A stretch of 11,698 bases of DNA from Promethearchaeota archaeon (GCA_016840085.1 JAEOTA010000029.1:1-11698); one strand, 5' to 3'; counted from the stretch's first letter, positions 1 to 11,698 are shown. Program-made: numbers and translations. Notes: a model not told the origin generated them from the letters alone.

Positions 1-688
1 CTACATACACATAATAACGATTTAAAGAATCATCGCATTCAATTTTAATATGATACCAAGTGTTTTTTACTAGACCACTTTTTAGAGTCTTCCAATCACC
101 ATCATTATATTCTAGTTTACCATAAGTCTGCCAGAATCGTAATTCTACGTTAGTATTGGAGCCTTCTTTTAATTTAATCCTTAATTGTGCTTTAGTTGAC
201 ATTGATGAGGAAGTACCCCACCAAAATTCAACTTGTGCATCAGCTTTAGAACCTGAAAAATCATTTTGGATAAGCACTCGATCGGTTTCATCATAATCTT
301 TCAATTCAAGTACTTCTGTATGATCTTGCCATGATGAAACAATTTTAGCGTGAGAATTCGAACCTGCCAAATAATAGTCTATAAAGTCAATATCATAACC
401 AATTTCATTAATTTCATCTCTGAAATCATAAGTTCCATAATATACATGTGAATCAGTATTGCATTCAAAAAAATCATATGTTCCTGGAAAATACCCGCTC
501 ATGGGTGAACAATAACCAATATTTTCAGGGGTATTTATCTGAATAGGTTGAGTGCTGAGTTTAGGTGTATCTATTGATGTAGACAAATTGTCACTTATAA
601 TTAGTGATGGTAATCCAAAAGCTAGGAGAAATGAAAATATTCCGATTAAAATAACTATCAATTTTAGTCTAATACTTTTTAAATTCAT
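1..688 (-). CDS. Secreted or membrane-anchored hypothetical protein with a beta-sandwich (ConA/LamG-like) domain, Lokiarchaeia-type; 3' end truncated by the window
   Basis: Not in the ORF track because it has no stop in the window. Manual translation from ATG at 688 is open for 229 codons to the edge: MNLKSIRLKLIVILIGIFSFLLAFGLPSLII (signal/TM) ...INTPENIGYCSPMSGYFPGTYDF...HTEVLELKD...VEFWW...NTWYHIKIECDDSLNRYYVYV. The fold and taxonomic call come from recalled motif similarity. Confidence 0.85.
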   Translation of the reverse strand, partial: MNLKSIRLKLIVILIGIFSFLLAFGLPSLIISDNLSTSIDTPKLSTQPIQINTPENIGYCSPMSGYFPGTYDFFECNTDSHVYYGTYDFRDEINEIGYDIDFIDYYLAGSNSHAKIVSSWQDHTEVLELKDYDETDRVLIQNDFSGSKADAQVEFWWGTSSSMSTKAQLRIKLKEGSNTNVELRFWQTYGKLEYNDGDWKTLKSGLVKNTWYHIKIECDDSLNRYYVYV

Positions 689-903
689 ATGTTTCAACTA
701 TTATTTAAATAAAATTCTATTTTCTAATTTTTTGTCTTTTTTTAAAATAAATTATGTTCAATTTCACAAATATGTACATTGAATATAAAAATATTACTCA
801 CTTTAGAAAAACTGATTTAATATAATTAAAGGTTGGCTCCTGTCAGTGAGACGCGACAACGCGTTAAAAAAGAATATTATAGGGAGAGGGTGAAATCAAC
901 GTG

Positions 904-925: not shown

Positions 926-1213
926 TTTTCAATCCTTATTTTTAATGGATATTATTATGCTATTCAGTGAGGAAGGAGCACTTTTCATTATTTCGAAAGA
1001 ACTATTTCAATCCTTATTTTAGTGGATAGTATTCCATTATTAACCACGTATGTTTGTATATATACTTTCAATCCTTGTTCGCGTGGATAATATTTAACGA
1101 CGCAAATAGAATTACGCATGAATTATTTCAATCCTTGTTCGCGTGGATAATATGAATGGGTAAAGTAGGGAGACCAAAGGGCTCATTTCAATCCTTGTTC
1201 GCGTGGATAATAT
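926..1213 (-). CRISPR. CRISPR array A1: three perfect 28-nt repeats, one intermediate repeat and one degenerate 37-nt-class trailer repeat; 4 spacers
   Basis: tttcaatccttgttcgcgtggataatat at 1066, 1126 and 1186. Variant tttcaatccttattttagtggatagtat at 1005-1032. Relic ttttcaatccttatttttaatggatattattatgctat at 926-963. Spacers are 32, 32, 33 and about 41 nt. Orientation is taken from the ATTGAAA 3' end, the leader on the right and degeneration on the left. Confidence 0.93.
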
Positions 1214-1292
1214 ACTAATTTCTTCCTATTCCATGATACCTACATGAAAATTTGTTGCCTATAGTATATAGAGAACGCCATCTATTTAAAAT
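1214..1292 (-). promoter_or_regulatory. Leader of array A1 (paralog of 2034-2118) with TATA-like TTTAAA at 1285-1290
   Basis: 1214-1272 matches 2034-2092 at 51/59 positions without gaps, and the TATA-like box lies at the same offset from the first repeat. Confidence 0.8.
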
Positions 1293-1322
1293 TGATGTCT
1301 AGATTTTTTTTTAACCACTTGA

Positions 1323-2033
1323 GTTTCAATCCTTGTTTTAGCGGATACTCTTATGCTATTATCTATAATGGTACCGAAATCTGAAGCTGAATTTGAATTT
1401 CAATCCTTGTTAGTGTGGATAATATGATCATTCTGGTTTTAACATGAAGAATAAACGTTTTCAATCCTTGTTCGCGTGGATAATATTTTTTAGGACTTCC
1501 TACTGCACTATACGATCTTTTTCAATCCTTGTTCGCGTGGATAATATTTCACATTTGAAGTATTATTTTTAATTGATGTTTTCAATCCTTGTTCGCGTGG
1601 ATAATATTCCATTCCAGTCATTCTGATTTCCTCTGCTTCTTTCAATCCTTGTTCGCGTGGATAATATGACTCATAGAGTCTTCCCATTCGGAATTCTCTA
1701 TTTCAATCCTTGTTCGCGTGGATAATATTTTTATCTCTCCGGCATACGGTAGAAATATCCCTTTCAATCCTTGTTCGCGTGGATAATATACTTTTACCTC
1801 AGTGATAGAATATGCCAAAGACTTTCAATCCTTGTTCGCGTGGATAATATAATATATCTATATAGCTAATCACACTGAGGGACTTTCAATCCTTGTTCGC
1901 GTGGATAATATTGAAAGTCTTCAAAACATTTATCAAGACATTTCTTTCAATCCTTGTTCGCGTGGATAATATAGAAGAAAAAGAATTAAAGAAGCCGGCA
2001 CGCCCTTTCAATCCTTGTTCGCGTGGATAATAT
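1323..2033 (-). CRISPR. CRISPR array A2: ten perfect 28-nt repeats, one variant and one 37-nt-class trailer repeat; 11 spacers
   Basis: Perfect repeats start at 1459, 1520, 1580, 1640, 1701, 1762, 1823, 1884, 1945 and 2006. Variant tttcaatccttgttagtgtggataatat at 1398-1425. The 37-nt repeat at 1323-1359 is 33/37 identical to the reverse complement of the right-hand repeat. Spacers are 33 nt (x8), 32 nt (x2) and 38 nt (oldest). Confidence 0.97.
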
Positions 2034-2118
2034 ACTAATTTCTTCCTATTTCATGATACTTACATAGGAATTTTTAGTCTATAGTATATAGAACACCTCT
2101 TCTCTATAAATTTTTTCT
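2034..2118 (-). promoter_or_regulatory. Leader/promoter of array A2 with archaeal BRE-TATA-like GAAAAAATTTATA (minus strand, TATA at 2105-2110)
   Basis: AT-rich segment between the cas6 stop and the first repeat, duplicated at 1214. It has a purine-rich BRE-like run followed by TTTATA, and the dyad CTATA-GTA-TATAG is conserved in both copies. Confidence 0.78.
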
Positions 2119-2139
2119 TTTTTCTACAAATTATTATAT

Positions 2140-2823
2140 TTAATTATTAGAAGTTTTTTTCACTGTACCAAATCCATGAGAGACTGCTTTCCCTATTCCT
2201 AAATAATCGGGAATTAAAAAATTAACCTCAAAAATTCCTTTAAACCCTACCATAGGCACATCCTTATATGAGACTTTTAGAGGGTATACTTCGATATCTA
2301 CTTGTATCGTATCAGGAACATCATATCCTAAATGTTTAGACATCGAAAGGATATTTCCAATAAGTATCTTTTTTAATAATTCCCGTCTTTCTTTTATAGA
2401 TGCCTTCTTAAATTTATTGTAATTCTCGCTGTTAAGCGCAAGCCATGGGGAATTATATTTGTAAGAGACCATCACACCTCCATTTGTAATACCAAACTCG
2501 GATTCTTCATAATGTGCTTTAATTTCAACGAGTTTATACGTAATTTTTCCTAAAAGAAGTTCCTTAATGTTCATTACTACATTTCTTAACACGGATATAG
2601 CATTATCTCCAATTCCGAGAATAATGGCTTTATTGCTGTTAATCTTATACTGTATTTTAGGGTATTCGTATTTTAACCTCTTCTTTCCTTCGGAAGAGTT
2701 CAGGTGATGATGCAACTCGGTATATTTTTTAAATTCTGACCCAACAAATCCCCTTAAGTGAGTGGGTGTCTCTTCAATTATCTTATCTGTAATTAAAAAT
2801 AAGTGTAATATTTTTAACTTCAT
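2140..2823 (-). CDS. cas6: CRISPR pre-crRNA processing endoribonuclease Cas6 (Cas6b-like)
   Basis: 227 aa. LRGFVG...LHHH...YEYPKIQYK N-terminal pattern typical of Cas6b, C-terminal G-rich loop GIGKAVSHGFG, and located next to the array. Confidence 0.95.
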   Translation of the reverse strand: MKLKILHLFLITDKIIEETPTHLRGFVGSEFKKYTELHHHLNSSEGKKRLKYEYPKIQYKINSNKAIILGIGDNAISVLRNVVMNIKELLLGKITYKLVEIKAHYEESEFGITNGGVMVSYKYNSPWLALNSENYNKFKKASIKERRELLKKILIGNILSMSKHLGYDVPDTIQVDIEVYPLKVSYKDVPMVGFKGIFEVNFLIPDYLGIGKAVSHGFGTVKKTSNN

Positions 2824-2842: not shown

Positions 2843-4306
2843 TTATAATTTTAAGATAATATTTTCTATTTTTTCATTAATCTGCTTAAATATATTGGAA
2901 AGATCTAGGTCTTTATTATCTAAGAATAGATAGAGAATTTCTTCCAAATTATTCTTCAATCTAAGATATAACTTTTCTATACTCTCTCCGTATAATTTTT
3001 CAATTTTTTCTCTTGATATAGGATCAAAACCATGAGCGATTATTGAACTGTTCCTTAAATCTCCTAAGCATTCCGTGCTTTTCTTATCCTTATATTTTTG
3101 AATTCGATCTTGCTCATTTAACTCTTTATATTGATATTTATTGATCTTATCAAAAAGTTCTAAAATGCTCATCAACGGTTTAATATTCTTGTCAAGAGTT
3201 CCTAATTTTAAAAATGCAATATAGAAAAAAACAGGACGTCCCAAATCATCGGTATCTATTTTTAACTTAAATGTCTTATAATGTTTGTTTTGAAGGGAAT
3301 TCCATATATCCGGTTCTTTTTTTTCTAAATATTGTGAAAATTTAAGATGATTTTCTTTTCTATTTAGATCTTCTTTAAAATTATCTCTAAATAGATAGTT
3401 ATTTATCTCGTATAAAAGCGCTTCTTCTAATCGAAATAACAGTGCTACGAAAAATAAATAATTCTGATTAGTATAATTAATTTCCATATTCCAAAAAAGC
3501 TCTTTAATTAATTCAATGGGTTTTAATTGTCCTTGTAAATTGAAGATCTTATATTGTTGATGTAAAGAATGAGGAGTTAGGTCTAAAAATTGTTTAAAAT
3601 GTTCTTGCGCTTTTTCAAAATCAAAATTCTTTCTTTGCTGGGCATATTTTAATAAAAAAACTAGACATTCAGTATCTTGTAATTTGCTCCTTTCCAACAG
3701 TTCTATGATTGATTTATATTGGTTTGTTTTTAATAACTCTATACACGATTTTTTGACTAATATTTTATTTATTGTCTTTTCATGATTTACAGGATATAAT
3801 TTATTCTTAAACACATTATAAAACTCATTACCTTCAAGATATAATGATGATAAAATTACATAAACAGCCCCATTCATTTGAGGCGTCCCTCCAGATAAAG
3901 AAATTATTCTTTTCTCTGTTCTTCCTATTATACTCTCTTCTTGAGTAAAATAATTAGTAAAAAAACTATACACCTTTTCATAATCAGTTGGATTATTAGT
4001 ATATTGAATTACATTAACTCGAATATTATAGGTATCTCGAATCCACTTTTTAATAATTTGTCCTAAAAAAAGAGTATCTGAATTTCTAACTCTCTGATCT
4101 TCTTGATTGGTTACAAAAATATAGATATTTTTTAATTTATTGGCGAATATTTTTAAGAAAGGTTCAAGTAGAGGATATGTAAGTTTTTCTTTTTCCATAT
4201 CATAATTATTAAACAACTCTTCACCTTTTTGCCTCACATTATCTCGTTCTAATGTATTATCATTATATAGAACATCCCTATTACCAATATTAGAAATTAG
4301 AATCAC
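2843..4306 (-). CDS. csm6: Csm6-like CARF-helical-HEPN cyclic-oligoadenylate-activated ribonuclease
   Basis: 487 aa with a GTG start. N-terminal CARF Rossmann fold (ILISNIGNRD, ISLSGGTPQM), helical middle region, and HEPN RX6H motif RNSSIIAH(GF). Lies between csm5 and cas6. Confidence 0.85.
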   Translation of the reverse strand: MILISNIGNRDVLYNDNTLERDNVRQKGEELFNNYDMEKEKLTYPLLEPFLKIFANKLKNIYIFVTNQEDQRVRNSDTLFLGQIIKKWIRDTYNIRVNVIQYTNNPTDYEKVYSFFTNYFTQEESIIGRTEKRIISLSGGTPQMNGAVYVILSSLYLEGNEFYNVFKNKLYPVNHEKTINKILVKKSCIELLKTNQYKSIIELLERSKLQDTECLVFLLKYAQQRKNFDFEKAQEHFKQFLDLTPHSLHQQYKIFNLQGQLKPIELIKELFWNMEINYTNQNYLFFVALLFRLEEALLYEINNYLFRDNFKEDLNRKENHLKFSQYLEKKEPDIWNSLQNKHYKTFKLKIDTDDLGRPVFFYIAFLKLGTLDKNIKPLMSILELFDKINKYQYKELNEQDRIQKYKDKKSTECLGDLRNSSIIAHGFDPISREKIEKLYGESIEKLYLRLKNNLEEILYLFLDNKDLDLSNIFKQINEKIENIILKL

Positions 4307-4354
4307 GTCTTATACATACTCCTTAAGAATTTGATTTAAATAGGGCCTGAAATC

Positions 4355-5659
4355 CTAATCCCACGTTAATTTAACCCAACCAAATGGAGCGATTAATTTT
4401 TCATTGTCAGATACGACAAATTTTCTTGTAAGAGGAAATAAATAACCTCTGGCTTTTTCTTCTTCACTATCAAATAATTTTTTTATTCTTTCTAATAAAG
4501 TCACATATTTATTGTTCCCCCTTATTGTAACAACGCTACATAACCACTTTTCATTTATCTTGGGTTTATTTGGTGAATCTCTATCGGGAAGAATAGTATA
4601 TCGTCCCTGTTTTGCTATTCCATATTCCTTATTATATCTATCTGGGATATTAAAATGAAAAATCTCTAAACCCTTGTATTTCCTGACAATCTGTTTATTA
4701 TCTGTGAAATTTAAAAATAAAGTTATTCCTAAAATGCTTGAACCTTGACCTAAACGAAGTATACATTCACTATCTTTCAGATGTGTTAATTCGTTATTTA
4801 GTTTCTTATAGAATCCAATAATCTCATCTAAATTAGGATCTTTTCTGTCTGTGAATTCTTTTAGCTCATACTCTATAATTTCTTTAGAAAAATCATTTAT
4901 TGCGTTGAGTATATTTTCTTGTGTTAAATCAAAATTATCAGAAATTAAAGCCTTTGCATCAGTTAATTTATTGTTAATTTTGATAGTACCTGAGCTATAA
5001 AAATTCTCATCTAAAATCTCATAATAGATAGGGATGGTAGATTTTTTATCTCTTAAGTGATAAACTGTAGATCCTGTAATTTTGATAGGTGATGTTTTAT
5101 CAATATGCGAATCCGATATAATTAATGCTCTAAGTAAATCAGTTGTCCCATCTTTTTGAATTAATTTCATTATTTCTTGATCATTGAAGCGATCAATTAC
5201 ATTTCTTATGACATTTTTTTTTTTCTCAGGGTGTTCCTTTAAAATCTTAAATAAAATGGCGGTTCTTACTGCTCCTTTTATACTAGAACCAGGAATGTAG
5301 ATTTGATTTCCAGTTTTAATAAATTGATTAATTTCATTTTTACCAATTCTCCCGATTAGATCATACTTTCTCTCCACTGATTTCTCCCAATCTATTTTAT
5401 ATCTGCTTAAAAATTCTTTAGTATCTCCTTTCCAAATATTATTTTCAAAATTTTCGTTGATATCATTTGTTAAATCATCGATAACTTCAAGTGGAATTTC
5501 TGAAATTAGTGTATCAAAATCTAATATAAAAATGTAGTTTTCATGGTAAATATAATCAAGTTGTGAATATTTCTCACCAGAACCTATATGTAGTGGAGAT
5601 AATCCTCTTAAGGTTAAGATATGAGATTTTTGACTTATATTTATTCCTTTATCTGTCAT
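4355..5659 (-). CDS. csm5: Type III-A RAMP Csm5 (Cas7 group) with a C-terminal insertion
   Basis: LSPLHIGSG, YIPGSSIKGAVRTA, LRLGQGS, FPLTR and PFGWV motifs. The ORF track starts at 5686; ATG at 5659 is preferred because it lies just after the csm4 stop with GAGGT upstream. Confidence 0.95.
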   Translation of the reverse strand: MTDKGINISQKSHILTLRGLSPLHIGSGEKYSQLDYIYHENYIFILDFDTLISEIPLEVIDDLTNDINENFENNIWKGDTKEFLSRYKIDWEKSVERKYDLIGRIGKNEINQFIKTGNQIYIPGSSIKGAVRTAILFKILKEHPEKKKNVIRNVIDRFNDQEIMKLIQKDGTTDLLRALIISDSHIDKTSPIKITGSTVYHLRDKKSTIPIYYEILDENFYSSGTIKINNKLTDAKALISDNFDLTQENILNAINDFSKEIIEYELKEFTDRKDPNLDEIIGFYKKLNNELTHLKDSECILRLGQGSSILGITLFLNFTDNKQIVRKYKGLEIFHFNIPDRYNKEYGIAKQGRYTILPDRDSPNKPKINEKWLCSVVTIRGNNKYVTLLERIKKLFDSEEEKARGYLFPLTRKFVVSDNEKLIAPFGWVKLTWD

Positions 5660-5663
5660 TTTT

Positions 5664-6845
5664 TTAATCGACCTCTCCCTTTCCAATGTTTAAATAGACT
5701 CCAATTCCATTCTTATAGATTTTATGGTATTTGCCTATAAACTCATCAGAAGCTACTTGAATTATTTTTCCTTGAATTTGCTTTTCGAATATTGCACCCT
5801 CTTCAATGAATTTAACATCATTAAATCTTTGAGAAATATTATCCACCGAATAAACAAACCCACTTCTTCCATATATATTGAAGAACTTTACATTTTGAAT
5901 CTCCTCTAAACTAGGATATACCAGAGAAATATTTGTGACATACCCTTTATCCTCTTCTTTAAAGAGATCAATATATTCAAAATTCTCATCTAGTTCTTTA
6001 ATATCAATATTATCTACTAACCCACAACCAATACTTCTTTTACCTCCAAGCCCTTCATCCGTAATTAATTTGATAGATGATAAAATTTTATTAATTAATT
6101 CATTAGCTAACCCTGAATAATCTAATAAAAAGTAGAATCCCGGAATTAGTTGAAAATTTATTTCACTTCCATTTTCTTTCACATAATATTTTGATATGTG
6201 GAACTTAAACTTTGGCCATGTGAAAGGTTCAGACTCTTTACTAGTTCTGCTGATTCTTACTTTTTGTTCGTCTAAAATTTCAAATATGGTTACTTTTCTC
6301 CGAATTGCTCGTTCTATCTTTTCTATTTTTGCGTTAGAATTATCAATTAAACTAAGAAATCCTTTTAATCCTAACAGTTCAATATCTTTTTCATGGACTA
6401 AATAATTCCCATCTATTATATGGTATTGACTTAAAGATATATTTTGCCCTTGTTGAAGCCTTCTTAATATTTCAAAAGAAATAAACTGAACTTTTTTTAG
6501 TGATTTTGGATTTTCATCAAGATATTCTTGAGATTTCTCATCTAAAGGAAATCTAATTAACGGCTTTGGTAAGAAATAAATAGTATTATAATATTCACTA
6601 TCTCTATAGATGTCAATATAATGAAAGCACGAAGACAATCTAAAAAATTCTGATTCACTATTCTCAAGTTCAATTATATGAGCTAAGCACTCTTTTAAAC
6701 TACTATTCCCATAAAGCTTTCGTACATTATTACAAATAGCACTAAATAATGTATCACTATGAATAATTGAACTAATACTTCCTGTATAATCCTTTCCAAT
6801 GCTGAAATAGTTCCTCTCTTTAGAGACTAATTTTATTATATACAT
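5664..6845 (-). CDS. csm4: Type III-A RAMP Csm4 (Cas5 group)
   Basis: IHSDTLFSAI, LSSCF, FLPKP, GLGGKRSIGCG, RSGFV and EEGAIF motifs. The ORF track starts at 6872; ATG at 6845 (MYIIKL) is more likely. Confidence 0.95.
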   Translation of the reverse strand: MYIIKLVSKERNYFSIGKDYTGSISSIIHSDTLFSAICNNVRKLYGNSSLKECLAHIIELENSESEFFRLSSCFHYIDIYRDSEYYNTIYFLPKPLIRFPLDEKSQEYLDENPKSLKKVQFISFEILRRLQQGQNISLSQYHIIDGNYLVHEKDIELLGLKGFLSLIDNSNAKIEKIERAIRRKVTIFEILDEQKVRISRTSKESEPFTWPKFKFHISKYYVKENGSEINFQLIPGFYFLLDYSGLANELINKILSSIKLITDEGLGGKRSIGCGLVDNIDIKELDENFEYIDLFKEEDKGYVTNISLVYPSLEEIQNVKFFNIYGRSGFVYSVDNISQRFNDVKFIEEGAIFEKQIQGKIIQVASDEFIGKYHKIYKNGIGVYLNIGKGEVD

Positions 6846-7608
6846 TAACGAACCAATCTTTATTTTCAACATCCTTTAAATTAAAATTTTCAGCTAAAAA
6901 TGTCTCTGCCTTTTCATGAGTATAGTAATTATTATCCCGAAGTATCATTTTTATCTCCTCAAAGCTTATTTTTCCACTTCCCCGTGAACCACTTCCTCCC
7001 AGATAATCATCCTCGAGTAATTTTAAACCTTGAAAAAGAACTTCTATTAACTCTTTGTCTTTTTCAGAAAATAAATCTAAAATGATTTCAAAATCAAATT
7101 GCGCTTCTACTGGTACTCTTTCAAGATGTCTTGGATTTGCTCTGGCAGAAATTCTATCTACTGTGTTCTCAATTTTATCTTCAGTATAATCTAATTCAAG
7201 ATTCTTAAAAAACAAGTCTTTATTTTCCTCGAAAAATGCCTCATCCAAAAATGAATCTCGAAAAATTCCTCTTCCCGGTTCATTGACTTCTGGTGCACCA
7301 AAAATTTTTATAATATCATCAACGGTATCATCTTCAAAATTATGTATTACCATCTTGGGATCAAAAAATCCATTGCCGTCATTTTTGTCTTCAGTCCTGA
7401 GGGGGTAATAATTTTGCTCAAGAAGACTTCTCAATTTTCCTTTTATTGTACTTCCTGGAATGTATGGTATACCTTTTGAGTCTTTAATTACTGGATTATC
7501 AACACCACCAATATCTAATGAAGTTTTACTACCTCCAATAGCGAGTCCTGTCTTTACTTTTATTTTTCCTGTTAATATAACTTTTCCTTTAAGTTGATAT
7601 TCTTCCAT
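6820..7608 (-). CDS. csm3: Type III-A backbone RNase Csm3 (Cas7 group)
   Basis: TGLAIGG, GGVDNPVIKD (catalytic Asp position retained), PYIPGSTIKGKLRSLLE, KIENTVDR, ANPRHLERVP and YLGGSGSRGSG motifs. SD GGAGGTGA upstream. Confidence 0.97.
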   Translation of the reverse strand: MEEYQLKGKVILTGKIKVKTGLAIGGSKTSLDIGGVDNPVIKDSKGIPYIPGSTIKGKLRSLLEQNYYPLRTEDKNDGNGFFDPKMVIHNFEDDTVDDIIKIFGAPEVNEPGRGIFRDSFLDEAFFEENKDLFFKNLELDYTEDKIENTVDRISARANPRHLERVPVEAQFDFEIILDLFSEKDKELIEVLFQGLKLLEDDYLGGSGSRGSGKISFEEIKMILRDNNYYTHEKAETFLAENFNLKDVENKDWFVNVYNKISL

Positions 7609-7613
7609 ATTTT

Positions 7614-8045
7614 TTAATCACCTCCAGAAGCTTTATGATATGCTAATATTGCTTCAAAAAACTCCTTAAAACCTTCTAAAGTTTTATTATCATTTACTTT
7701 TTTAATTAATTCAATTAATACATTTGTTAGTGGTTCTAATACTTCAAATCTGCCTTTCTGATAAGCTAATTTGGGGCGTAATAAATTTAGATCTTTTTTG
7801 CTTTCTTCAAAATTATCAGGTAACCTCTTTACAGTATTGAAAATTCCTCTGATTTGCGATGTTGAAATAAGTTTTCCTCTATATCGATAATGAGCACACA
7901 TTACACCAAAGTCTTCACTTAATTCTATAAACCTATTTATATCCTCCATAGTCTCTTTTTTCAAAATTTTGTCGGAATTATTAATTATATCATTAGCTAC
8001 TTTCATGATATCGTCTCTTCTTATTCTTCTTCTAGCATATGACAT
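7614..8045 (-). CDS. csm2: Type III-A small subunit Csm2 (Cas11)
   Basis: 143 aa, helical. STSQIRGIF, LRPKLAYQKGR and FFEAILAYHK motifs. GAGGT SD upstream. Confidence 0.96.
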   Translation of the reverse strand: MSYARRRIRRDDIMKVANDIINNSDKILKKETMEDINRFIELSEDFGVMCAHYRYRGKLISTSQIRGIFNTVKRLPDNFEESKKDLNLLRPKLAYQKGRFEVLEPLTNVLIELIKKVNDNKTLEGFKEFFEAILAYHKASGGD

Positions 8046-8082
8046 CAGATCTTTACCTCTTTTGTTGTTTTTTTAAAAAATT

Positions 8083-10698
8083 TTATTTTCTTGTTAAATA
8101 ATCTGCCCATTTTACTGCAACAGATATGAAATTTATAGTTTTTGTTTGTAAAGTTGAATCTGGTTTGAATAAATTATCAATTATAATAATTTCTACCATC
8201 TGAATAATAAACTTGGTCAATGACCTTACTTCAGGGTTTCTTGACCATAAAACAGTTCTTAAATAATATTTCAATCTCCATAATTTAGGAACTCGAATTC
8301 TTCTTTCTAGTGAATCTTCCAATAATATTCTTAACCCTAAAACTGAACTTTCAAGTTTATGGAGCATTGATTTAGAAAAATTCTTCTCTCTGATTAAATA
8401 AAATAAAATATCTTTTAAAGTAAGAGTTAATTCAAACTCTGATTTACTATTAATCCACTTAAGAATTTCCTCTTTTAATTCTTCAATTTTCTCGATTTTC
8501 ATAATTTTCAGTATTTGTTCTCTATGATACTTCTCTATTTTTTTCGAATCTTCTGAAAATTCATTATACTCATCTTCTTTTTCTAAGCTCCAATCCCAAT
8601 TCAAAACCAAGCCAAATAGTGAAATCTTATTTTTGGTATTACCCTTACCTGTAAATATTTCGAATTGTTTTGCTCTATTTATCTCATCTTCGGCGTTTAA
8701 TGAAGCTTTGATTATAGGAAAAGTAGAGGGTTCAAGAATTATAGCTGCACTTAAAGTTATATCAGGATTAAATGCCGTGAATCTCCTAAAATCTCTATAT
8801 AATCTAAATGAGAATTCAATTAATTTATCCCATGAACCAACAGCAAATAAATCATCTCCTCCAGAAAATATAAGATAGACTGAATCAGAAAATTCTGATT
8901 GAACAAGTCTAGGAACATATCCCTCAAAAAATAATGTTAATGAAGAACTTAAGGTAGAGACTCTTGATATTGTATTATTTTTACCTAAGCCTTTTTGAAA
9001 AATTTTTCCTAAAGAATCGACATCCATTTTTAAAATTCCAAGTTTGTTAAATCCTGTTCTCTGATGTGCTTGATCAGCTAACTTACTATTATCTAAAATA
9101 ATTCCAAATTTATCAAGCGGAAAAGCAATAGGAAATTGTATATCGCCTATTGTATTCTCTAATGATGGATTATTTATGGAATACCATTTATTTTGATTCT
9201 CTTTCACATTTTCTTTAAATTTAACTGCTTTTTCAAATTTATTTAAGATTCTGTTATAACTCTCTGAACCGAATTGAGTATTTTTATAAAAAATACTAGA
9301 TTTTAAATCATCTGTCAAATCTTTAAAGCTCTTACACATTATACACCAATAATCATCAGTATCAGGCATTTTTTCTAGATTTTCAAATGAATTACAAATT
9401 GCACATCGTTGAATTTTATTTGCAGAACCTTCAACTGGACCAAATATTTTTGAGAAATATTCTTGCTTTGCTCTTTTAATTATATCACTAAATTTTTTAT
9501 TCTTCTTTATAGAAGTCGTAATATTAACTTTTTTCCAACTTTCAGAGATGTTAAAAACTAAATCCTCAATAGATAAAGGTATGTAATCTAAAGCAAGATA
9601 AAGATTTGCATTGAATTGTTCAATGAATAATTTATTTATTTTTAATGAAATTTCACTTAACTTAGATTTAAGATCCTTTGAGTAATGACCAATTATATAA
9701 AAATGACCTCCCCCAGCAAATATAATGTTTACCTGTGTTAATTCTAACTGTTCAATTATATACTGAGCGAAATTTTCGGTTAATAAACTAAAGAAAAATG
9801 ATCGACCTTTTAATGTCTTCATAGCATATTTGGATGAGATCAAATGGATAAATTTCTGAATACCCGAGAAATCTCCGTGAATAAAGGTGAATAATTTACG
9901 ATCTTCAAAGATTTCTTTTTTTACATCATCCTTTTCTATTTCTTTTCGGTAAACATCGCCCTTAACATATAATTCTTTAAGGATTTGTCCCATCCTATTT
10001 AGTGTTTCAATCTCATGCTCTTTAATAATTGAATTAAATTTAAAATAATTATCAAGAGCCACCGCAATGGCACAAACCATTTTTGAGTGATCAAATAAAC
10101 TAATGTCAGGCTCAACAAAATAAGCAGCTGATGGTATAAATTTAAAATGTCTTTTTAGAAGGGAGAACAAAAATTCAAATAGGTTCTTGAAATCACCTTT
10201 ATGTTCTTTAATTCTGTCAAAACTATCTTTAAAAGAAACCCAATTATCTAAAAAATATTGTTCTAAAGAATCTATAACTTTTTCTCTTAAAAAAGGGAAA
10301 ATTTCTATTGAATCATCTTTTAAAATTAATTGTTTCCCTAAATAATAAAATTTTGGATGGTCTTTTTCCTTAAATATGGATATTTTTGAAAAAATCGGTG
10401 TTAATCCAATCCTCCTTATATCTTCTTTCTTTTCAATCCCTATTCTTTCTGATGAGGCTAACCAATCGGCAATAATTAATTTTTTTAACAAATTATAGCC
10501 ATCAGTATTGAAAAAGTCTTCGATACCAGTCTGATGATGTAAAGAAATCAAACTAGTAACGTTAGGTAAAATCTCGTCATATTTTTGAATTAAATTCTTC
10601 CCAATCTCTTGATGAGTCCCACTTTCACCAGAACGATACCCTAGTTTTCCAATATCATGTAAAAGAGCAGCAAATATTAGTTGGAATTTGTCATTCAT
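8083..10698 (-). CDS. cas10: Type III-A large subunit Cas10/Csm1 with intact HD nuclease and GGDD cyclase motifs
   Basis: 871 aa. ALLHDIGK (HD), IIADWLAS, DISLFDHSK, GDFSGIQKFI, LKGRSF, GGGHF, Zn finger CAIC...CIMC, KMDVDSLG and FSGGDDLF motifs. Confidence 0.98.
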   Translation of the reverse strand: MNDKFQLIFAALLHDIGKLGYRSGESGTHQEIGKNLIQKYDEILPNVTSLISLHHQTGIEDFFNTDGYNLLKKLIIADWLASSERIGIEKKEDIRRIGLTPIFSKISIFKEKDHPKFYYLGKQLILKDDSIEIFPFLREKVIDSLEQYFLDNWVSFKDSFDRIKEHKGDFKNLFEFLFSLLKRHFKFIPSAAYFVEPDISLFDHSKMVCAIAVALDNYFKFNSIIKEHEIETLNRMGQILKELYVKGDVYRKEIEKDDVKKEIFEDRKLFTFIHGDFSGIQKFIHLISSKYAMKTLKGRSFFFSLLTENFAQYIIEQLELTQVNIIFAGGGHFYIIGHYSKDLKSKLSEISLKINKLFIEQFNANLYLALDYIPLSIEDLVFNISESWKKVNITTSIKKNKKFSDIIKRAKQEYFSKIFGPVEGSANKIQRCAICNSFENLEKMPDTDDYWCIMCKSFKDLTDDLKSSIFYKNTQFGSESYNRILNKFEKAVKFKENVKENQNKWYSINNPSLENTIGDIQFPIAFPLDKFGIILDNSKLADQAHQRTGFNKLGILKMDVDSLGKIFQKGLGKNNTISRVSTLSSSLTLFFEGYVPRLVQSEFSDSVYLIFSGGDDLFAVGSWDKLIEFSFRLYRDFRRFTAFNPDITLSAAIILEPSTFPIIKASLNAEDEINRAKQFEIFTGKGNTKNKISLFGLVLNWDWSLEKEDEYNEFSEDSKKIEKYHREQILKIMKIEKIEELKEEILKWINSKSEFELTLTLKDILFYLIREKNFSKSMLHKLESSVLGLRILLEDSLERRIRVPKLWRLKYYLRTVLWSRNPEVRSLTKFIIQMVEIIIIDNLFKPDSTLQTKTINFISVAVKWADYLTRK

Positions 10699-11287: not shown

Positions 11288-11698
11288 ATAGCATAGAAAT
11301 ATCCACTAAAACAAGGATTGAAACTTTATATTTCTCAATTTTTAGCATAAGAGTTTGTTGAGTTATAGCATAGAAATATCCACTAAAACAAGGATTGAAA
11401 CCTAAGATAATTCTTAACTGAATTAAAATCCAAATACTTTAATAGCATAGAAATATCCACTAAAACAAGGATTGAAACTTATATATACATCTGGTTTCGT
11501 CCACATCGGACAGATAATAGCATAGAAATATCCACTAAAACAAGGATTGAAACTAGACATAACAAATTCATTATCTTCGCTCATTACAACTATATCATAG
11601 AAATATACACTAAAACAAGGATTGAAACTCAGAGTATCTATTCTTTCTTCTACATCTTTAAGGATAGCATAGAAATATCCACTAAAACAAGGATTGAA
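11288..11698 (+). CRISPR. CRISPR array B: 37-nt repeat ATAGCATAGAAATATCCACTAAAACAAGGATTGAAAC, at least 6 repeats, runs off the window
   Basis: Repeats at 11288, 11365, 11442, 11517, 11592 (2 substitutions) and 11664 (truncated). Spacers are 40, 40, 38, 38 and 35 nt. The repeat ends in the canonical ATTGAAAC handle. Confidence 0.98.

What the first reader, a model, noticed from the sequence alone, without database searches (positions are those of the whole stretch)
926..1425. Fossil record of a repeat switch (37-mer to intermediate to 28-mer) preserved at the old end of both left arrays
Seen: both arrays end in a 37-nt-class repeat (926-963; 1323-1359, 33/37 identical to array B). Each is separated by a long, B-sized spacer (about 41 and 38 nt) from a 28-nt intermediate, after which spacers are 32-33 nt. 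The 1005-1032 intermediate keeps the B-type CTAAAA loop; 1398-1425 is a 2-substitution variant of the 28-mer. The 926 and 1005 copies share a private substitution (ccttAtttt), which supports descent in place. The leader-repeat junction TAGT|ATATTATCC also resembles TAGCATA-gaaa-TATCC of the 37-mer. Inference: repeat length and spacer ruler changed together within an existing array. The oldest spacers and intermediates differ between the two arrays, so this may have happened twice or been followed by homogenisation.
Basis: partly seen in the sequence, partly recalled or inferred. Interest (0 to 1): 0.72.

Follow-up and report, generated by a model that had tools for sequence, protein, structure and literature searches.

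The report
Mosaic CRISPR arrays, two repeat lengths
Two CRISPR arrays beside a type III-A operon of a Lokiarchaeal genome do carry old 37-nt repeats behind younger 28-nt repeats. The pattern is better explained by repeated recombination between two related, co-resident repeat families than by a repeat changing length step by step on the spot.

Summary
Both left arrays are transcribed on the minus strand, so their low coordinates are the old end. Each ends in a 37-nt-class repeat (926-963 and 1323-1359; the latter is 33/37 identical to array B). Each relic is followed by a long spacer (41 and 38 nt), then a variant 28-mer, then 28-mers with 32-33-nt spacers.

- A Promethearchaeota MAG (YT_039) has the same trailer and the same terminal-repeat variant, followed by at least 13 37-mers. 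So A2 was once a 37-mer array.
- The 28-mer was not born here. The 28-mer and its own conserved leader form an established family: 19 sediment contigs, all pure 28-mers, eleven of them beside orthologous csm/cas6b genes.
- The leaders of A1 and A2 belong to that 28-mer class. They show no detectable similarity to the 37-mer leaders.
- The first 28-mers after the relics in A2 and in YT_039 already have 28-type loops.
- YT_039 also has 28-mers that are older than a block of 37-mers. A duplicated 33-nt spacer there is followed once by a 28-mer and once by a 37-mer lacking its terminal G, which marks a crossover in the shared 14-nt core.

Best reading (about 0.6): recurrent inter-array recombination. 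This could include inversion of the operon between oppositely oriented arrays.

Repeat 1005-1032 may be a true intermediate. Interest is moderate.

The parts
926..963 (-). Relic 38-nt repeat of the 37-nt (Rfam DR7) class. It is the terminal, oldest repeat of array A1.
   Evidence: 5 mismatches and a 1-nt insertion against the array B consensus. Rfam DR7 scores 21.9 bits on the minus strand.
964..1004 (-). 41-nt spacer, of the size class seen in 37-mer arrays
   Evidence: Array B spacers are 35-40 nt; 28-mer arrays have 32-33 nt.
1005..1032 (-). 28-nt repeat with a 37-type core and loop and a 28-type tail. It is either a chimera or a true intermediate.
   Evidence: It differs at 2 positions from the B 37-mer with 8 internal nt removed, and at 5 positions from the 28-mer consensus. 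DR7 scores 28.8 bits.
1066..1213 (-). Three canonical 28-nt repeats of A1, with 32-nt spacers between them
1214..1322 (-). Leader of A1 (28-mer leader class), running into the trailer of A2 (…TTTTTTTTTAACCACTTGA)
   Evidence: The leader is closest to the YT_039 left-array leader (score 118). The stretch spanning the trailer and terminal repeat (1293-1359) is 91% identical to L033:2437-2502.
1323..1359 (-). Relic 37-nt repeat, the terminal repeat of A2
   Evidence: 33/37 identical to array B. Its ACTCTTATGCTAT tail variant is shared with the two oldest repeats of the orthologous YT_039 array. DR7 scores 34.1 bits.
1360..1397 (-). 38-nt spacer, of the size class seen in 37-mer arrays
1398..1425 (-). 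Variant 28-mer with an AGT loop. It is the oldest 28-mer of A2.
   Evidence: 2 substitutions from the local CGC form and 1 from the family's commonest CGT form
1459..2033 (-). Ten identical 28-nt repeats with 32-33-nt spacers (period 60-61)
2034..2139 (-). Leader of A2 (28-mer leader class), directly downstream of cas6b
   Evidence: Closest to the cas6b-proximal leader of metagenome contig L071 (score 118). Scores against 37-class leaders are 20 or less.
2140..2823 (-). cas6b, the presumed processing nuclease for both repeat classes
   Evidence: Pfam Cas6b_N and Cas6b_C, E = 2.6e-19 and 5.6e-41
2843..10698 (-). Type III-A operon: csm6, csm5, csm4, csm3, csm2, cas10
   Evidence: NCBIfam equivalogs; Cas10/Csm1 scores 519 bits
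11198..11287 (+). Leader of array B (37-mer leader class)
   Evidence: Similar to the leader of the type I-B array C on contig C22 (score 43), and not to the 28-class leaders
11288..11698 (+). Array B: six 37-nt DR7 repeats that run off the contig end. It lies in inverted orientation to A1 and A2.
   Evidence: Rfam DR7 scores 44.6 bits, above the gathering score of 37. Spacers are 35-40 nt.

Best explanation
A1 and A2 are mosaic arrays. Each consists of a young block of the 28-nt repeat family, with that family's own leader and 32-33-nt spacers, joined to the stump of an older array of the related 37-nt (DR7) family.

Inferred mechanism: the joints arose by recombination within the sequence the two families share. 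That sequence is the 14-nt core TTTCAATCCTTGTT plus GTGGATA on the plus strand. The junction spacer and everything older therefore came from a 37-mer array, and everything younger, including the leader, came from a 28-mer array.

Shown:
- Two leader classes exist.
- The 28 family is pre-existing and widespread.
- YT_039 has an orthologous 37-mer array.
- YT_039 has recombinant junction repeats.
- Spacer duplications occur within and between arrays of this family.

Inferred:
- The exchange partner. The arrays flank the csm operon in inverted orientation. A single crossover between a 28-mer and a 37-mer on opposite sides would invert the operon and swap the old ends. This yields exactly A2 (cas6b, then leader28, 28-mers, 37-mer, trailer).
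- That all units are still processed by Cas6b into crRNAs with the tag AUUGAAA(N). Both families keep the 3' segment AACAAGGAUUGAAA, so the mosaic should cost nothing.

At family level the 28-mer looks like the 37-mer with 8 internal nt removed (RNA sense ATAG[CATAGAAA]UAUCCAC), without the final C, and with a changed 3-nt loop.
For: (1) The leaders of A1 and A2 align with the conserved leader of every 28-mer array found. In one search, A2 scores 118 against L071 and A1 scores 118 against YT_039. Scores against the 37-class leaders (B, C, G115, G098) are 20 or less.

(2) 19 metagenome contigs carry pure 28-mer arrays of period 61. Eleven of them show orthologous csm or cas6b genes (Cas10 59-66%, Cas6b 73-78% identity).

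(3) On the Cas10 tree the pure-28 loci form a 100/100 clade that excludes the window. G115 and G098 carry 37-mers.

(4) In YT_039 (L033) the same trailer and terminal-repeat variant are followed by 13 37-mers up to the contig end.

(5) The YT_039 left array reads, from old to young: partial 28-mer, spacer X, 28-mer, spacer X again, a 37-mer preceded by A instead of G, three 37-mers, then G plus a 28-mer with a CAC loop, nine 28-mers, and the leader. Both crossovers map to the shared core, and 28-mers lie older than 37-mers.

(6) The first 28-mers after the relics in A2 (AGT loop) and in YT_039 (CAC loop) already have 28-type loops. An in-place event would need a deletion plus 2-3 substitutions at once.

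(7) Duplicated spacers occur in L067 and L068 (tandem) and between two arrays in L073/L074. Recombination is therefore common in this family.

(8) A chimeric assembly is unlikely. The shared core is only 14 nt, and an independent MAG shows the same junction context.
Against: - 1005-1032 is equally well read as a true intermediate: a 37-type sequence in 28-nt format that shares the G-to-A change with its 38-nt neighbour.
- A similar 37-loop repeat sits at the old end of the orphan 28-mer at C9:~70849.
- Old-end 28-mers in other contigs show 37-like states (TGA or CTA loops, TTTT tails).
- In A2 the base before the junction 28-mer is A, not the G expected if the core came from a 37-mer.
- The operon-inversion step is untested because array B runs off the contig.
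- No integrase with 28/33 geometry was found. The only cas1-cas2 in this 98.8%-complete MAG is the type I-B one on C22.
- No reads were available to verify the assembly.
Confidence: 0.6

Rival explanations
1. In-place switch. The leader-proximal 37-mer of an existing array lost about 8-9 nt. The shortened copy was propagated by later acquisitions, spacer length changed with it, and the old end preserves the series 37-mer, intermediate, 28-mer.
For: - The polarity is right, and the junction spacers are 37-class in size.
- 1005-1032 is 2 changes from the B 37-mer minus 8 nt, against 5 changes from the 28-mer. It shares the G-to-A change with 926-963.
- Repeat length can change when repeat motifs or their spacing change (Haloarcula hispanica I-B, duplications of 29-33 bp instead of 30: PMC4872114; E. 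coli I-E rulers: PMC5039180).
- Variants of 28-mers lean towards the 37 state, 30 of 86 mismatches against 7% expected.
- The window's Cas10 lies outside the pure-28 clade, so this lineage could be transitional.
Against: - The leader changed class as well.
- The 28-mer and its leader exist in many loci without any 37-mer relic.
- The A2 and YT_039 junction 28-mers already have 28-type loops.
- YT_039 has 28-mers older than 37-mers.
- The relic 37-mers are nearly identical to the living array B, although the csm loci with 28-mers are only about 60% identical in Cas10.
- The lean towards 37 states is largely explained by A/T mutation bias and transitions, and by copying of variant repeats.
- The G-to-A change is recurrent (G115).
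Confidence: 0.2
2. A single ancestral mosaic module (trailer, 37-mer, 28-mers, leader) was duplicated in tandem. A1 and A2 would then share one junction event rather than two.
For: A1 and A2 have the same layout, and their leaders are 85% identical over 108 nt (family D6). Tandem [array-leader] modules are typical of this csm family, including the 37-mer genome G098.
Against: - The two relic repeats, the two junction spacers and the two junction 28-mers are all different.
- The A1 leader is orthologous to the YT_039 left-array leader, and the A2 leader to the cas6b-proximal leader of L071. The modules therefore split before these lineages did.
- The YT_039 left array has a different old end.
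Confidence: 0.12
3. Assembly artefact: contigs of a 28-mer array and a 37-mer array were joined through the shared repeat core, or strain variants were collapsed.
For: The genome is a short-contig MAG (89 contigs, 7.6% contamination). The window is a whole contig that ends inside array B. No reads could be checked.
Against: The two repeat classes share only 14 contiguous bases, below usual assembly k-mers. The junction context 1293-1359 (trailer plus 37-mer variant downstream of a 28-class leader) recurs at 91% identity in an independent MAG of another genus.
Confidence: 0.04

Closest known systems
Degenerate terminal repeats and polarised repeat variants in CRISPR arrays (survey: PMC12839519)
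   Same: The oldest repeat differs from the array consensus. New repeats copy the leader-proximal one, so old variants persist at the trailer end. G115 shows this for a G-to-A change.
   Different: Here the terminal repeats are not decayed copies of the array's own repeat. They are members of another repeat class, 9 nt longer, with their own spacer size, next to a leader of a different class.
Recombination and reassortment between CRISPR arrays (mentioned in PMC7145637; Kupczok et al. 2015 and Held et al. 2013 cited from my own knowledge, not read here)
   Same: Exchange of repeat-spacer blocks through crossover in repeats, with duplicated spacers as a signature.
   Different: The partners are two repeat families of different length (28 and 37 nt) that share only a 14-nt core. 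The products are visibly mosaic, and the crossover points can be mapped.
Ruler-based control of repeat length by Cas1-Cas2 (Haloarcula hispanica I-B, PMC4872114; E. coli I-E, PMC5039180; Pyrococcus furiosus, PMC6698737)
   Same: Mid-repeat motifs and their spacing set where the repeat is cut. This provides a known route by which an internal deletion could create a heritable shorter repeat, as the 37-to-28 relation suggests.
   Different: Those are engineered changes of 1-3 bp in one system. Here a natural 9-nt difference is coupled to a new leader and a 4-6-nt shorter spacer. No matching integrase was identified.
Rfam CRISPR-DR7 (RF01320), 37-nt repeats ending AUUGAAAC, used by Cas6b-type I-B and type III loci
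   Same: Array B passes the family threshold (44.6 bits against 37). The relic repeats score 34.1 and 21.9 bits.
   Different: The canonical 28-mers reach at most 23.6 bits. They are a truncated derivative that is not in Rfam as a family.
Type III loci that rely on another system's adaptation genes (PMC8092290; review PMC9048733)
   Same: The csm operon has no cas1-cas2. The 37-mer arrays resemble the I-B array and its leader on C22, so they are probably filled in trans.
   Different: The 28-mer arrays have a geometry (28 + 33) that does not match the one adaptation module present.

Membership tests
CRISPR array (class 1, Cas6b-processed) | Regularly spaced direct repeats with unique spacers | tested here: met
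   Periods are 60-61 (28-mers) and 72-77 (37-mers). All spacers are unique.
CRISPR array (class 1, Cas6b-processed) | Repeat 3' end encoding the 8-nt crRNA tag AUUGAAA(N), with cas6 and effector genes adjacent | tested here: met
   All repeat classes end …AACAAGGAUUGAAA in RNA sense. cas6b and csm genes are adjacent. Cleavage itself was not tested.
Rfam CRISPR-DR7 (RF01320) | Score at or above the gathering threshold of 37 bits | tested here: met
   Four array B repeats score 44.6 bits.
Rfam CRISPR-DR7 (RF01320) | The same threshold applied to the relic repeats 1323-1359 and 926-963 and to the 28-mers | tested here: not met
   34.1, 21.9 and at most 28.8 bits. The relics are related but sub-threshold. 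The 28-mers are not members.
Type III-A (Csm) system | cas10/csm1, csm2, csm3, csm4 and csm5 in one operon | tested here: met
   All exceed the NCBIfam equivalog cut-offs. Csm6 is weak (39.8 bits against a cut-off of 150).
In-place repeat-length switch recorded in one array | The same leader before and after the switch | tested here: not met
   The A1 and A2 leaders are of the 28 class and show no detectable similarity to 37-class leaders.
In-place repeat-length switch recorded in one array | The first short repeat after the switch is the long repeat minus the deleted bases | tested here: inconclusive
   Met for 1005-1032 (A1). Not met for 1398-1425 (A2) or for YT_039 L033:1581.
In-place repeat-length switch recorded in one array | The short repeat is absent outside descendants of the array | tested here: not met
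   19 metagenome contigs carry pure 28-mer arrays in a separate Cas10 clade.
Inter-array recombination product | Hybrid junction repeats and duplicated spacers | tested here: met
   In YT_039, spacer X occurs twice, followed once by a 28-mer and once by a 37-mer lacking its G. A G is retained before the 28-mer at L033:1581. In the window itself only 1005-1032 is hybrid.
Inter-array recombination product | The reciprocal product (28-mers at the old end of a 37-mer block) | tested here: inconclusive
   Seen in the YT_039 left array. It could not be tested for array B of the window, which runs off the contig.

The most novel reading that the evidence does not exclude
This Lokiarchaeal lineage may have caught the birth of a new CRISPR repeat class. 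On this reading a 37-nt DR7 repeat lost 8 internal nt and acquired a new leader and a 33-nt spacer ruler (I-E-like 28 + 33 geometry). Repeat 1005-1032, the similar repeat at C9:~70849 and the 37-like old-end 28-mers of other contigs would be surviving transitional forms. G000 and YT_039 would be a transitional lineage that still runs both classes on one Cas6b/Csm machine.
Probability: 0.2. Interest if true: 0.7.

Novelty: new variant of a known kind. Interest (0 to 1): 0.5.

Why it matters
Repeat length, leader and spacer length are normally fixed together for a CRISPR system. How a new combination evolves is poorly documented. This locus and its relatives offer a natural series:
- csm loci with 37-mers on both sides (G115, G098);
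- loci with 28-mers on both sides (a metagenome clade);
- a lineage with both classes, whose arrays are visibly mosaic.

The series shows that arrays of different repeat length can exchange blocks as long as the Cas6 and tag-encoding core is shared. Such mosaics can be misread as in-place evolution. The series also gives a concrete pair of substrates (28-class leader with 28-mer, 37-class leader with 37-mer) for testing what sets the repeat and spacer rulers. For array-based strain typing or dating, it warns that position in an array does not always equal age.

Tried and rejected
- Protospacer and PAM search. Two spacers searched in viral contigs gave no hits. All 20 spacers searched against the own genome gave only short chance matches. 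The two spacer classes could therefore not be compared by PAM.
- Search for a second adaptation module. Pfam Cas1 and Cas2 found only the I-B locus on C22. No Cas1 was found in YT_039. No cas1 was found among ten neighbouring ORFs of the metagenome contigs.
The four contigs said to encode the identical Cas6b could not be fetched as an independent check of the assembly.
- Test for a family-wide 'fossil series'. Variants of 28-mers are enriched for 37-mer states, and old-end repeats more so. I reject this as firm evidence because A/T mutation bias, transitions, relaxed constraint at those positions and copying of variants confound it.
The leader end is not conserved in other 28-mer arrays, where it reads …AAAAAGTAGT. 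An internal 8-nt deletion retaining the first ATAG fits better. The predicted …GGATACTAT form exists, for example in L075.
- Relatives. No 28-mer arrays were found in the other 53 genomes of the genus. Among 400 genomes of the phylum only G121 (= YT_039) had them, plus a degenerate orphan in G061.
- The repeats fold only into a weak 4-bp stem that is no better than shuffles. Structure gives no discrimination between the classes.

Full report
**Setting**

The window is a whole 11,698-nt contig (C16) of a 4.68-Mb MAG with 29.5% G+C. The evidence for a Lokiarchaeal (Promethearchaeota) origin is indirect:
- the closest array locus is titled 'Promethearchaeota archaeon YT_039';
- some Cas6b relatives are named Lokiarchaeota or come from Loki's Castle sediment;
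- earlier notes of this scan say the same.

Genes on the minus strand are cas10, csm2, csm3, csm4, csm5, csm6 and cas6b. Together they form a type III-A operon without cas1 or cas2.

Downstream of cas6b lie two tandem arrays of a 28-nt repeat, A2 (1323-2033) and A1 (926-1213), each with its own leader. Upstream of cas10 lies array B, made of 37-nt repeats, which runs off the contig.

The repeats end …GGATTGAAA(C). Rfam CRISPR-DR7 matches A1 and A2 on the minus strand and array B on the plus strand. The low coordinates of A1 and A2 are therefore the old ends, and A and B are inverted relative to each other around the operon.

**Observation**

All sequence statements of the finding hold.
- 1323-1359 is 33/37 identical to the array B consensus.
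- 926-963 is a 38-nt copy with 5 mismatches and one inserted base.
- The spacers next to them are 38 and 41 nt, within or just above the 35-40 nt range of array B. All later spacers are 32-33 nt.
- 1005-1032 has the B-type loop in a 28-nt frame.
- 1398-1425 differs from the 28-mer at two positions.
- Shuffled windows never produce such matches.

**The 28-mer is an established family with its own leader**

A metagenome scan found 19 contigs with 28-mer arrays of period 61. They come from marine sediment, including Loki's Castle. None of them holds a 37-mer.

Eleven of these contigs show csm or cas6b genes orthologous to the window's (Cas10 59-66%, Cas6b 73-78% identity). In several the arrays form tandem [array-leader] modules.

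The roughly 100 nt after the youngest repeat are conserved across these arrays and across A1 and A2.

In pairwise leader comparisons:
- A2's leader is closest to the cas6b-proximal leader of contig L071 (score 118);
- A1's leader is closest to the YT_039 left-array leader (score 118);
- no 28-class leader scores above background (20 or less) against the leaders of 37-mer arrays (array B, the type I-B array C on contig C22, G115, G098).

Leaders B and C resemble each other (score 43). The only cas1-cas2-cas4 in the MAG sits beside array C. Array C has 37-nt repeats and a 72-76-nt period.

**The 37-mer is the older class**

Its 24-nt core occurs in arrays of Methanosarcinales, Ignavibacteria, Beggiatoa and others, and it belongs to Rfam DR7.

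In the same archaeal family, G115 has 37-mers with 37-class leaders on both sides of an orthologous csm operon. The more distant G098 has 37-mers upstream of cas10.

On a Cas10 tree the pure-28 loci form a 100/100 clade. The window and G115 branch outside it, unresolved.

Sequence comparison suggests how the 28-mer is derived from the 37-mer:
- 8 internal nt are removed (plus-strand tail GGATA[TTTCTATG]CTAT becomes GGATACTAT, a variant that exists, for example, in L075);
- the final C (RNA sense) is lost;
- the 3-nt loop is changed.

The junction position is the most variable position of the family.

**The orthologous locus in YT_039** (G121; same family, different genus)

It has the same 28-class leader. 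After about 300 nt comes the same trailer (…TTTTTTTAACCACTTGA) and the same terminal-repeat variant (…ACTCTTATGCTAT) as in A2, at 91% identity. These are followed by 13 37-mers with 36-40-nt spacers, up to the contig end.

The YT_039 left array reads, from old to young:
1. a partial 28-mer;
2. a 33-nt spacer X;
3. a 28-mer;
4. spacer X again;
5. a 37-mer preceded by A instead of G;
6. three 37-mers;
7. a 28-mer (CAC loop) preceded by the 37-mer's G;
8. nine 28-mers;
9. the leader.

Here 28-mers are older than 37-mers, and both borders of the 37-mer block are hybrid repeats whose crossover lies in the shared 14-nt core.

Duplicated spacers also occur in L067 and L068 (tandem), and between two arrays in L073/L074.

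**Weighing the readings**

An in-place switch predicts three things:
- an unchanged leader;
- a first short repeat that equals the long repeat minus the deleted bases;
- no 28-mers outside the descendants of the array.

The first and third predictions fail. The second holds only for 1005-1032. The A2 junction repeat (AGT loop) is one step from the family's commonest CGT form, and the YT_039 junction repeat has CAC.

The mosaic junctions of A1, A2 and the YT_039 left array are all different, so this is a recurring process.

I therefore favour recombination between co-resident arrays (0.6).

Because the arrays flank the operon in inverted orientation, one crossover between a 28-mer and a 37-mer would invert the operon and swap the old ends. 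That gives A2 exactly. Two such events give the YT_039 sandwich. This step is inference. The old end of array B, which should then hold 28-mers, is not assembled.

**What remains open**

1005-1032 could be either a chimera (crossover in GTGGATA) or a true intermediate.
- A similar 37-loop repeat lies at the old end of an orphan 28-mer on contig C9.
- Old-end 28-mers elsewhere lean towards 37-mer states. A/T mutation bias and copying of variants confound that signal.
- The 'private' G-to-A change is recurrent: it is the consensus in G115, where the older repeats still have G.

The integrase that makes 28 + 33 units was not found.

Function is inferred, not tested. All classes keep AACAAGGAUUGAAA, so Cas6b should process mosaic transcripts, and Csm should load them.

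**Limits**

- YT_039 lacks the csm operon in its bin.
- The scans of genome contigs and metagenome contigs were exact-pattern scans, so diverged arrays were missed.

Noticed in passing
G000:C9:70847-70940 (L021/L086): An orphan mini-array far from any cas gene. A degenerate repeat with the 37-type loop (…AATCCTTATTTTAGT…) is followed about 65 nt later by a 28-mer of the common CGT form. No recognisable 28-class leader follows.
   Followed up: partly
window 1004-2005 (base before each 28-mer on the + strand): The base adjoining the repeat's 3' end (RNA sense) is G in 7 of 15 units, U in 5, A in 3 and never C. The 8th base of the crRNA tag is therefore variable and G-biased, as in PAM-derived repeat ends of type I-E. 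In most metagenome arrays the variable position is shifted by one base (NTTCAATCC).
   Followed up: partly
L092 (G098:C79) 12590-16800: Four tandem [leader-array] modules of a different 37-nt repeat lie upstream of cas10. The last repeat of three of the modules is cut at …AACAAGGATT and fused to following sequence, in two cases (about 14590 and 15310) a copy of the leader of the next module. This suggests that modules multiply by recombination.
   Followed up: no
L090 (G115:C14) 6100-6990: Within one 37-mer array the oldest full-length repeat has …CCTTGTTTT… and all younger ones have …CCTTATTTT….
   Followed up: partly
L085 (G000:C22:4001-24000): The type I-B locus has cas8b split into two ORFs (508 and 147 aa). 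It also has a beta-CASP nuclease between cas8b and cas4, and an unannotated 443-aa ORF upstream of cas1. Array C follows about 1 kb further on.
   Followed up: no
L101, L102, L103 (IMG/VR contigs): Single repeat-like units (CAATCCTTGTT…GTGGATA) occur in three viral contigs, without arrays. They may be solitary repeat units or chance matches.
   Followed up: no
window 2-697 (-) and 830-875: The flanking 232-aa ORF has no Pfam or NCBIfam match. A short stretch (about 836-872) looks richer in G+C than the AT-rich spacer region before A1 and contains a small dyad (…ACGCG…CGCGT…). This was seen by eye only.
   Followed up: no
L093 (G061:C44:~12388-12540): A genome of the same genus as G000 holds a degenerate three-repeat orphan of the 28-mer family (period 60-66) with no csm genes found.
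   Followed up: partly
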